From NCBI RefSeq assembly GCF_030384885.1, contig NZ_CP128613.1: a stretch of 64,000 nt of DNA; one strand, written 5' to 3'. This stretch comes from Escherichia coli (GTDB taxonomy: Bacteria > Pseudomonadota > Gammaproteobacteria > Enterobacterales > Enterobacteriaceae). The position numbers are program-made. Positions 37,901-40,900 of this stretch are shown one piece after another (the stretch's first letter is position 1; each line of letters starts with the position of its first letter).

Positions 37901-40900
37901 TGCGCCTTTATGCATAATGAGAGCAAGGCACATCAAATAAAATAACGATAGGTCACAACAAAGAGGTTTTTATGAAAAAGCTTATCGTTTCAAGTGTATT
38001 GGCATTCATAACATTTTCTGCGCAGGCCGCAGCATTTCAGGTCACTAGTAATGAAATAAAAACAGGAGAGCAACTTACAACGTCTCATGTATTTTCTGGA
38101 TTTGGGTGTGAGGGGGGTAATACATCGCCCTCATTAACCTGGTCTGGTGCTCCAGAAGGCACCAAAAGCTTTGCCGTAACTGTGTATGATCCAGATGCGC
38201 CTACAGGCAGTGGATGGTGGCACTGGACGGTTGCTAATATTCCAGCAACGGTAACATATTTGCCCGCTGATGCAGGAAGACGTGATGGTACAAAACTTCC
38301 GACTGGTGCTGTCCAAGGCCGAAATGATTTTGGCTATGCAGGATTTGGTGGAGCATGTCCTCCCAAAGGAGATAAACCCCATCATTACCAGTTTAAAGTA
38401 TGGGCTCTAAAAACTGATAAGATTCCTGTAGATTCTAATTCCAGCGGAGCGTTAGTTGGTTATATGCTTAATGCCAATAAAATTGCAACCGCTGAGATAA
38501 CACCCGTTTATGAGGTAAAGTAGGATAAGAGTATGCTGGCAAAAGATAGGACTAACCTAAAGATTGAAGAAATACGGATGCATAAACATCATGAGATTCA
38601 CAGGGTTAAGCCTCTTATGCCAGCTTTATGTCGTATCCGTCAGGGAAAAAAAGTTATCAATTGGGAGACGCATAGTCTAACTGTTGATAATAATCAGATA
38701 ATATTATTTCCCTGTGGATATGAATTTTATATTGCGAATTACCCAGAAGCAGGTCTTTATCTTGCAGAAATGCTTTATTATCCCATTGATCTAATTGAAA
38801 AGTTCCAAAATCTTTATGCGATAACCGATCAAATTCGTAACACGACAGGTTTCTGCTTACCTCAGAATCCTGAGTTAATATATTGTTGGGAGCAACTAAA
38901 AACATCTATTTCCCGAGACTTCTCAACGCAAATTCAGGAACACTTAGCAATGGGCGTTCTACTTTCATTAGGAGCACATCATGTTAATTGTTTACTTTTA
39001 TCAGATAGTAAACAATCATTAATAAGTCGTTGTTATAACCTAATGCTATCCGAACCTGGAACAAAATGGACAGCAAACAAGGTAGCGAGATATCTCTACA
39101 TTTCTGTTTCCACATTGCATCGCCGTCTGGCAAGCGAGGGAGTAAGTTTTCAAAGTATATTGGACGACGTGAGGTTAAATAATGCGTTGTCTGCTATACA
39201 AACGACAGTAAAACCCATCAGCGAGATTGCCAGGGAAAATGGTTACAAGTGTCCTTCTCGTTTTACTGAAAGGTTCCATAATCGTTTTAAGATAACACCA
39301 AGAGAGCTAAGAAAAGCGTCCAGAGAGTAAAAGTATTTTATGAAGGAGCAACAGCATCGATTTTTATTTTGGAAAATAAATACGGCATACTCAACCTATT
39401 GGAGCCTGAACAATCCGGTGACTTCTGCGCTAATCGGGGACGTTTATAAGCACATATAATTGATACTATCTTCCTCCATCACAATTTCAGAAATGCACGT
39501 GTGATTTTTTTGCATCCGGCGTTTGGACTATGTGGAGTTCAAGAGTGGGAAAGTTACAAGAGGTTGAGGGGATAATTAAAGGGATGCTTATGACATTAGA
39601 TATCCGGATAGGTACGGATATCGTTGTTATTAAATCTAGTTTATACGTTAAGATGCAGCTACAGCAGAAATTACCACTGTTAATTTTTTCATCGTGAGCC
39701 CTTTTATTTGTACTATTATTTAAAAATGATGTCACTGCACTACAAATACTCATCTAATCAATGAGATTATTTCAAGATGTAAGTTTTAGTTTCTCATTTA
39801 AATTGTGAAGCAGATCCCTCCTTTTATCTGAACTGTTTCTATTGTACACAATGCATGACTATTTTGTGAACGAATATAAATTTGGTAGTCAAATTATATT
39901 AAAGGTTGTTATTTATGATTGACTCATAATTTATTTTTTTAATTTAAATAACCTAATAATAACCATGGAGATTATTTGCATGATATTTGTTTAGACTTGT
40001 TAATGTAATTGAGGTGATTTTATTTAATACGCAATATAGCGCCGCTTGATATTAGTTCTATTTTTTTTTGCGTAAGATAGATGAGACAAACTGAGACGCA
40101 TAATGGTTTGCAAGGCTCTAATACTTTGATGTTGAGGATGTGATGGGGCATGTACGTGCATAGTACAATGATGTCCATGCCGGTGTAGATAATCTCCAGG
40201 CTTATCCGGTGCGCCGTAAAACCCCGTCCTTCAGGGCGGGGATATAAGGCGCGGTTTTCCACCTGACCAGGTGTTTGCTGTTGTTCAATGTATTGGCGGA
40301 TGACGGACATTGGCGCACCTCCGCAGCTACTGGCAAAATTGCCAGGACTCCACAAAACGCCTTTGTAGTAATACCTGACTGTAATATCTGGTCGATCTCG
40401 TCGCAGTAACCTACCCGATACGCCTTTGAGGCTGTTTACCAGACTGGATATCGCCAGTTTGGGAGGATAGTTAATTAACAAATGGACGTGATCTGGTTCG
40501 CCATCCATTTCAACCAGTTCAGCTTCAAAATCAGCACATACATTTGAAAAGTAAGTGCGTAGTTTTTCTGTCGCGTCATGGTCAAAAATCTGGCGTCGGT
40601 ATTTGGTGACAAAGACCAGGTGAACATGCATCAGGAAAACACAATGCCTTCCACGCCGGATATCGGTTTCTTTTTTCACAGACCAAAGTATCATTTGACC
40701 TGTGAAACGATTACAGGCATTTAAATTCCAGTTAAGACCCGGTGGTCAACAGGAGTGTGAAATGAGGCGCTTCGCAGGCGCATGTCGTTTCGTTTTCAAT
40801 CGTGCTCTGGCGCTTCAGAATGAGAATCATAAGGCCGGTAAGAAATACATCCCTTACGGGAAAATGGCTTCCTGGCTGGTTGAGTGGAAAAATGCCACTG

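What the first reader, a model, noticed from the sequence alone, without database searches (positions are those of the whole stretch)
40020..40694. tnpA reading frame runs through the left-end hairpin and 200 bp beyond, 224 codons where about 150 are expected
IS200-type Y1 transposases are about 140-155 aa. Here no stop occurs until 40020, so the frame continues across the left-end hairpin (encoding ...YPRPEGRGFTA...) and on past 40150. Either this element's TnpA has an unusual C-terminal extension, or a stop has been lost and a fusion with flanking sequence is produced.
Basis: seen in the sequence. Interest (0 to 1): 0.3.

Follow-up and report, generated by a model that had tools for sequence, protein, structure and literature searches.

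The report
IS609 transposase gene lost its stop
The over-long transposase reading frame is real but ordinary: in this E. coli copy of the insertion sequence IS609 the normal TAG stop has mutated to CAG, so the decaying gene reads through the element's end into neighbouring chromosomal DNA.

Summary
The 224-codon ORF at 40020..40694 (- strand) exists as described. It belongs to a 1748-bp copy of IS609 (IS200/IS605 family; 40206..41953), inserted after a TTAT exactly at the stop codon of yedK.

**Where the stop went.** Intact IS609 copies encode a 143-aa TnpA ending ...QQQTPG-TAG. Relatives in Salmonella and Klebsiella keep a TAG at that codon, and proteins from six other genera end at the same residue. 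The window has CAG at that codon (40265..40263).

**What the frame then contains:**
- 143 canonical codons
- 20 codons across the left end and its hairpin
- 61 codons of unrelated AT-rich flank

**Why the tail is not functional sequence.** It differs at every insertion site and is frameshifted between lineages at this same site. This copy also carries Y119N at a near-invariant tyrosine. RefSeq already marks the gene as a pseudogene.

**How common the lesion is.** The CAG allele is the majority in complete E. coli genomes: 6622 places against 1583 with TAG. It occurs at five or more loci, and the copies are strongly mosaic, which points to gene conversion. Across 14 copies tnpA evolves about neutrally, while tnpB looks constrained.

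**Verdict:** This is an ordinary, already-annotated pseudogene of low interest.

The parts
40206..41953 (+). Complete IS609 copy (IS200/IS605 family), 1748 bp, 5'-CCGGTG...GATGTCAA-3', oriented left end to right end on the tnpB-sense strand
   Evidence: The same 1748-bp unit sits between different flanks at 5 further loci. The empty site in strain SF-088 reads ...CTTAT|CAAACAGG.... Copies elsewhere match only from about window 40202 upward. NCBI names intact copies 'IS609 family transposase'.
40202..40205 (+). Target tetranucleotide TTAT immediately 5' of the left end, with no target duplication
   Evidence: YTTAT precedes the left end at all 7 insertion sites examined (yedK, ytfB, ydcL, yeaR, DUF3251 gene; yidH), and the right flanks are unrelated. 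The empty site keeps a single TTAT.
40211..40252 (+). Left-end imperfect palindrome: inner hairpin CCCCGTCC-TTCA-GGGCGGGG at 40222..40241, outer stem at 40211-15 / 40248-52
   Evidence: DNA fold of 40206..40262 gives -14.2 kcal/mol, z -2.4. The top (+) strand pairs better, with a T.G where the - strand has a C.A mismatch. The right end carries a near-identical hairpin.
40263..40265 (-). Codon 144: CAG (Gln) where intact IS609 and its relatives have the TAG stop. This is the causal point change, G on the + strand at 40265 versus A.
   Evidence: E. coli copies; Salmonella and Klebsiella TAG; protein ends.
40266..40694 (-). Canonical tnpA body, 143 codons: Y1/HUH transposase with H69-V-H71 and Y135. 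It carries Y119N (codon 40338..40340) and I129M, found only in this lineage among the sampled copies.
   Evidence: Pfam Y1_Tnp, E 8e-40. PDB relatives include ISHp608 TnpA 2a6m/2vhg at E 1e-19 and 2xm3, which I take to be ISDra2 TnpA (the listing names it only 'TRANSPOSASE'), at E 5e-17. Y119 is near-invariant in alignment A2. Variant table.
40206..40262 (-). IS-internal part of the read-through after codon 144 (VENRALYPRPEGRGFTAHR), translated off the left end and its hairpin
   Evidence: The same 20 extra residues appear in CAG copies at other loci (P0011, P0012, P0027).
40020..40205 (-). Flank-encoded tail: 61 codons (ISLEIIYTG...AILRIK) plus the TAA stop. This is chromosomal DNA downstream of yedK, not part of the IS.
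   Evidence: Present next to yedK in empty-site strains (H86-88). It is frameshifted relative to another yedK-site lineage (P0002, 222 aa). No Pfam hit.
40702..41910 (+). tnpB / insQ, intact, 402 aa, divergent from tnpA with start codons 7 nt apart
   Evidence: Pfam HTH_OrfB_IS605, OrfB_IS605 and Cas12f1-like_TNB. PGAP annotates it as 'RNA-guided endonuclease InsQ/TnpB'.
41923..41944 (+). Right-end hairpin TCCACGTCC-TTCA-GGGCGTGGA, 9 nt from the IS terminus
   Evidence: DNA fold -9.9 kcal/mol, z -2.8. Weak sub-threshold Rfam hits (HgcC, sot0042) overlap the tnpB 3' end and right end.

Best explanation
The window holds an old, chromosomally fixed copy of IS609 whose transposase gene tnpA is decaying. 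The ancestral TAG stop after codon 143 has mutated to CAG. The reading frame therefore continues for 20 codons through the left end, including its hairpin, and then for 61 codons of unrelated AT-rich flank until a chance TAA. The 81-residue tail is not a domain. It is whatever lies beyond the element. This copy also has Y119N at a near-invariant tyrosine, so the product, if made at all, is most likely inactive. Shown: the point change, the IS boundary, the ancestral state, the non-conservation of the tail and the neutral-looking evolution of tnpA. Inferred: loss of transposase activity.
For: - **IS boundary.** The boundary is at 40206, from the empty site and from 5 other insertion sites.
- **Ancestral stop.** Intact IS609 TnpA is 143 aa with TAG at window 40265..40263. 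TAG is conserved in Salmonella and Klebsiella relatives. The protein ends at the same residue in 6 other genera.
- **Tail varies with context.** ORF lengths are 224/222/213 aa (yedK site), 204 aa (ytfB site) and 168 aa (ydcL site). Two yedK-site lineages are out of frame with each other in the flank.
- **Annotation.** PGAP marks this tnpA as a pseudogene, 'missing C-terminus'.
- **Selection.** Among 14 copies, tnpA has 5 synonymous and 20 nonsynonymous distinct variants (pN/pS about 1.2). These include 3 different nonsense mutations and a start-codon loss. The yidH-site copies also have a 1-bp deletion inside tnpA, annotated as frameshifted. For tnpB the counts are 33 and 42 (about 0.37).
- **Second lesion.** Y119N hits a residue conserved in all other aligned sequences and in PDB homologues.
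- **Activity elsewhere.** The K-12 IS609 copy gave 0 new insertions in mutation-accumulation lines (PMC5009759).
Against: - The CAG allele is the majority allele (6622 places against 1583 with TAG) and occurs at five or more insertion sites. CAG elements may therefore have been mobile, through their own extended TnpA or in trans, unless gene conversion alone spread the allele.
- I recall, from prior knowledge that I did not check here, that ISHp608 TnpA carries about 28 residues after its catalytic tyrosine. If so, a C-terminal extension is not obviously incompatible with activity.
- No expression or activity data exist for this copy.
- The pN/pS estimate rests on 14 recombining copies.
Confidence: 0.9

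Rival explanations
1. The long TnpA is the native form of this IS, and the C-terminal extension has a function.
For: About 80% of E. coli IS609 copies share the CAG codon and the same 20 IS-internal extra codons. Some annotations list the 224-aa protein as an ordinary transposase (P0001).
Against: Salmonella and Klebsiella relatives keep TAG at this codon. Six genera end at the same residue. Beyond 20 residues the tail is flank DNA that differs at every site and is frameshifted within the yedK site. No family matches the tail. tnpA evolves neutrally.
Confidence: 0.03
2. Stop loss is real but benign. The extended TnpA still works, and CAG-type IS609 elements spread to several loci by their own transposition.
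For: CAG is found at yedK, ydcL, yeaR, ytfB and a DUF3251-gene site. Thousands of CAG ORFs have no other lesion (P0010/P0012 at 204 aa and P0002 at 222 aa, each with roughly 900-2500 members).
Against: Both alleles occur at the same three loci, and the copies are mosaic: 513 of 2485 site pairs fail the four-gamete test. Gene conversion therefore explains the spread without any transposition. For the window copy, Y119N is an extra lesion. No IS609 movement was seen in K-12 lines, although that copy also has an internal stop.
Confidence: 0.07
3. Sequencing or assembly artefact at the stop codon.
For: None beyond the general possibility of a single-base error.
Against: The identical sequence is in an independent finished genome. 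The exact 38-mer with CAG occurs at 6622 places in 4198 genomes.
Confidence: 0.01

Closest known systems
IS609 of Escherichia coli (IS200/IS605 family, divergent tnpA/tnpB as in IS605); intact reference form such as the O157:H7 copy, TnpA WP_000604943.1, 143 aa
   Same: About 98% nucleotide identity, the same 1748-bp ends, the same LE/RE hairpins, the same TTAT target and an intact tnpB.
   Different: Codon 144 is CAG instead of TAG. It also carries Y119N, I129M, A105T and R31K.
The IS609 copy of E. coli K-12 (tnpA next to insQ, ydcL-ydcO locus), annotated as a tnpA pseudogene
   Same: The same CAG at codon 144, and the same PGAP verdict 'missing C-terminus'.
   Different: The K-12 copy additionally has an internal TGA at codon 96. 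Its read-through would end after 168 codons in a different flank.
Structurally characterised Y1 transposases of the family: ISHp608 TnpA (PDB 2a6m, 2vhg) and 2xm3, which I take to be ISDra2 TnpA (the PDB listing gives only 'TRANSPOSASE')
   Same: The HUH motif and the C-terminal catalytic Tyr align, and the Y1_Tnp domain matches end to end.
   Different: Homology is distant (E about 1e-17 to 1e-20). Those proteins are 140-155 aa with their own stops, and none is fused to flanking sequence.

Membership tests
IS200/IS605 family insertion sequence (IS609) | Encodes a Y1 (HUH) single-strand transposase TnpA | tested here: met
   Pfam Y1_Tnp E 8e-40, profile 1-121 of 121. HVH at residues 69-71 and Y135 are invariant in A2. 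PDB TnpA homologues found.
IS200/IS605 family insertion sequence (IS609) | Accessory tnpB (OrfB_IS605 / RuvC-like, Zn-finger TNB domain) | tested here: met
   The 402-aa ORF at 40702..41910 hits HTH_OrfB_IS605, OrfB_IS605 and Cas12f1-like_TNB.
IS200/IS605 family insertion sequence (IS609) | Subterminal imperfect hairpins at both ends instead of terminal inverted repeats | tested here: met
   LE 40222..40241 and RE 41923..41944 share the motif C(C/A)CGTCC-TTCA-GGGCG(G/T)G and fold with z of -2.4 and -2.8. The termini CCGGTG... and ...GATGTCAA are not inverted repeats.
IS200/IS605 family insertion sequence (IS609) | Insertion 3' of a fixed tetra- or pentanucleotide without target-site duplication | tested here: met
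   TTAT precedes the LE at 7 sites. The right flanks are unrelated and the empty site has one TTAT.
IS200/IS605 family insertion sequence (IS609) | Near-identity to elements named IS609 | tested here: met
   96-99% identity to copies whose TnpA NCBI names 'IS609 family transposase'.
Intact (autonomous) IS609 | tnpA ends at the family's stop after codon 143 | tested here: not met
   CAG at 40265..40263 against TAG in intact copies and outgroups.
Intact (autonomous) IS609 | Conserved core residues of TnpA unchanged | tested here: not met
   Y119N at a residue conserved in 11 of 12 aligned proteins and in PDB homologues.
Intact (autonomous) IS609 | Transposition activity | not testable with these tools
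   The only indirect evidence is that the K-12 copy gave 0 insertions in MA lines (PMC5009759).
Functional C-terminally extended transposase variant | Extension conserved in sequence and frame among copies | tested here: not met
   The tail differs by insertion site and is frameshifted between yedK-site lineages.

The most novel reading that the evidence does not exclude
The stop-loss (CAG) allele is not just one of many neutral lesions. It may have been favoured and spread among IS609 copies by gene conversion because it disables or destabilises TnpA while leaving TnpB and its guide RNA intact, which would be a step towards immobilised, TnpB-only elements. One conceivable route is that tnpA transcripts ending at the left-end hairpin (stem followed by UUUUA) would lack any in-frame stop and be handled as non-stop mRNAs. 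Alternatively, the 20-residue LE-encoded extension is tolerated, and CAG elements are the mobile majority form in E. coli.
Probability: 0.08. Interest if true: 0.35.

Novelty: already known. Interest (0 to 1): 0.1.

Why it matters
It matters little beyond annotation hygiene. The 224-aa "transposase" found in some records is a read-through pseudogene product, and RefSeq already flags it as a pseudogene. The modest wider point concerns E. coli IS609 as a whole: tnpA is decaying at fixed chromosomal sites while tnpB stays open and looks constrained. One particular lesion, TAG to CAG, has become the majority allele across several loci, probably through gene conversion. That fits the current view of IS605-family elements persisting through TnpB rather than through active transposition, but it does not extend that view.

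Tried and rejected
- **Hidden domain in the tail.** Pfam finds only Y1_Tnp at residues 18-139. Database homologues covering the tail are all E. coli yedK-site copies. Rejected.
- **Flank ORF too long for chance, so perhaps a gene remnant.** P is about 0.007 when shuffling 606 nt of more AT-rich flank, but about 0.02 with the composition of the 183 nt itself. A second - strand frame is also open there, but lineages differ by a frameshift. Treated as chance and composition.
- **LE hairpin as an intrinsic terminator of tnpA, which would make CAG transcripts non-stop.** The consensus scan does not call it. Only 4 U follow a stem that has a C.A mismatch on that strand. Kept only as speculation.
- **Recurrent independent mutation as the cause of TAG/CAG at the same loci.** Mosaic SNP patterns and the association of TAG with 40593A in 4 of 6 TAG copies, at three different loci, favour gene conversion.
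- **Known RNA families.** Only sub-threshold hits at the tnpB 3' end and right end.
- **Dcm (CCWGG) hotspot as an explanation of the change.** The CCTGG next to the codon does not include the mutated base (read directly from the sequence).

Full report
**Observation.** The ORF is exactly as reported: ATG at 40694, stop at 40022..40020, - strand, 224 aa. Only residues 18-139 match the Y1 transposase domain (Pfam Y1_Tnp, E 8e-40, full profile). The gene is divergent from an intact 402-aa tnpB/insQ at 40702..41910, which carries HTH_OrfB_IS605, OrfB_IS605 and Cas12f1-like TNB. The window is E. coli. The 2151 bp around the element are 100% identical to chromosome NZ_CP027579.1 (strain 2013C-4282), and about 4,300 of 5,426 complete genomes carry the element at this locus. 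RefSeq annotates this tnpA as a pseudogene, "incomplete... missing C-terminus", covering only 426 nt.

**What the element is and where it ends.** Copies elsewhere in E. coli match the query only from window position 40202 or so upward. Strains without the element have the left flank joined directly to yedK. Comparison with the empty site (SF-088...CTCCAGGCTTAT|CAAACAGGTTG...) and with copies at five further loci defines a 1748-bp unit, 40206..41953: 5'-CCGGTG...GATGTCAA-3'. It is always preceded by (T/C)TTAT and followed by unrelated sequence, with no target duplication. A seventh site at yidH shows the same TTAT.

Both ends carry near-identical subterminal hairpins. The left-end hairpin is 40222..40241 within a larger palindrome at 40211..40252. 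The right-end hairpin is 41923..41944. They fold better than shuffles, with z of -2.4 and -2.8. NCBI names the intact form "IS200/IS605-like element IS609 family transposase". All tested defining features of an IS200/IS605-family element are therefore met.

**Where tnpA should end.**
- The O157:H7 copy has an intact 143-aa TnpA. In the alignment its stop, TAG, falls on window 40265..40263, where the window reads CAG.
- Homologues at 80-85% identity from Salmonella, Photorhabdus, Morganella, Klebsiella, Proteus and Yersinia are 138-146 aa long. All end at the same residue...YIEQQ(Q/E)TP(G/S/D).
- At the DNA level the Salmonella and Klebsiella relatives also have TAG at that codon, in a conserved context.

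The ancestral state is therefore a TAG stop, and the window carries a T>C stop loss. The 224 codons break down as 143 canonical codons, 20 codons read off the left end (QVENRALYPRPEGRGFTAHR, which crosses the hairpin) and 61 codons of chromosomal flank.

**The tail is not a conserved extension.** CAG copies at other loci share only the 20 IS-internal residues and then diverge. The ytfB-site form is 204 aa and the K-12 ydcL-site form is 168 aa. Even at the yedK site, another lineage (P0002, 222 aa, 1024 members) is out of frame with the window in the flank because of an indel. Sixty-one open codons in sequence of that composition has P of about 0.02. This is unremarkable given how many sites and lineages exist.

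**Further decay.** Relative to the consensus of 14 copies, the window's tnpA has Y119N and I129M, which are seen only in this lineage among the sampled copies, plus A105T and R31K. Y119 is conserved in all the other aligned proteins and in the PDB homologues.

Across the 14 copies tnpA shows:
- 5 synonymous and 20 nonsynonymous distinct variants, pN/pS about 1.2
- three different nonsense mutations and a start-codon loss
- a 1-bp deletion in the yidH-site copies, which PGAP annotates as frameshifted

By contrast tnpB shows 33 synonymous and 42 nonsynonymous variants, about 0.37. The sample is small and the copies recombine. Still, the contrast fits a decaying tnpA beside a maintained tnpB. In K-12 mutation-accumulation lines IS609 produced no new insertions (PMC5009759).

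**Population picture.** I used 38-nt queries centred on the variable base, so that a mismatch there leaves no 28-mer seed.
- The TAG version occurs at 1583 places in 1411 genomes.
- The CAG version occurs at 6622 places in 4198 genomes.
- Both alleles occur at the same loci: yedK (window and L002 CAG; WY517-2 TAG), yeaR-yeaQ (AR_0119 CAG; DETEC-S565 and FORC_041 TAG) and ytfB (O157 TAG; AF43 and strain 167 CAG).

The copies are strongly mosaic. Of 2485 pairs of informative sites, 513 fail the four-gamete test, and 35 sites are incompatible with position 40265. Copies at one locus are no more alike than copies at different loci. Gene conversion among copies, together with ordinary inter-strain recombination, is the simplest explanation for the allele's spread. 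Repeated identical mutation is not needed. Mobility of CAG elements cannot be excluded.

**Mechanism and comparison with known elements.** What is shown: a single-base stop loss in a known IS, read-through into the flank, non-conservation of the tail, and additional lesions. What is inferred: the product is inactive, or at best irrelevant. This is IS609, already catalogued, and its tnpA is already flagged as a pseudogene here and in K-12.

**Speculation not supported by a test.** If tnpA transcripts ended at the left-end hairpin, CAG transcripts would lack an in-frame stop. The terminator scan does not call that site.

**Verdict.** The feature is ordinary and already known.

Noticed in passing
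window 41950..41956 and 40202..40206; L007 2703..2708: IS609 inserted exactly on the yedK stop codon. In the empty site the TGA overlaps the TTAT target. With the IS present, the last bases of the right end (...TCAA) supply a new TGA, so YedK ends ...QPVC instead of ...QPV. The host gene survives with one extra Cys.
   Followed up: yes
window 40206..41953 compared with L001-L014: IS609 copies in E. coli are highly mosaic: 21% of informative site pairs are four-gamete incompatible. Copies at the same locus are no closer to each other than to copies at other loci, which indicates frequent gene conversion or recombination among copies.
   Followed up: partly
window 40266..40694 (tnpA) versus 40702..41907 (tnpB): Across 14 copies tnpA looks neutral (5 synonymous, 20 nonsynonymous variants, three nonsense mutations, a start loss and a frameshift). 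tnpB looks constrained (33 synonymous, 42 nonsynonymous; pN/pS about 0.37) and is intact in 13 of 14 copies.
   Followed up: partly
window 41783..41966 (+): Weak, sub-threshold Rfam hits cover the 3' end of tnpB and the right end: HgcC E 0.04, sot0042 E 0.06 and RAGATH-18 E 0.1. This is where a TnpB guide (omega/right-end) RNA would be expected. In that case the adjacent flank CAAACAGGTTGAATT... would be the guide, matching the empty site next to TTAT.
   Followed up: no
window 39651/39652; L007 931..2152: Relative to strain SF-088, the window lacks a 1.2-kb segment carrying most of an ompC-like porin gene between ybcM and the IS. The emrE-ybcL-ybcM genes next to fliE/yedK look like a DLP12-type prophage remnant.
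   Followed up: partly
window 40020..40205 (- strand): Two of the three - strand frames are stop-free across this flank and both end near 40020, while all + strand frames are full of stops. There is no annotation or homologue. It is probably a composition effect (A-rich, G-poor - strand), but I did not explain it further.
   Followed up: partly
L011 (WY517-2) 910..2084, equivalent to window 41373..41406: One yedK-site copy has a 34-bp deletion that frameshifts tnpB, together with a TAG-allele tnpA that carries an internal stop. Whole elements do sometimes decay.
   Followed up: no
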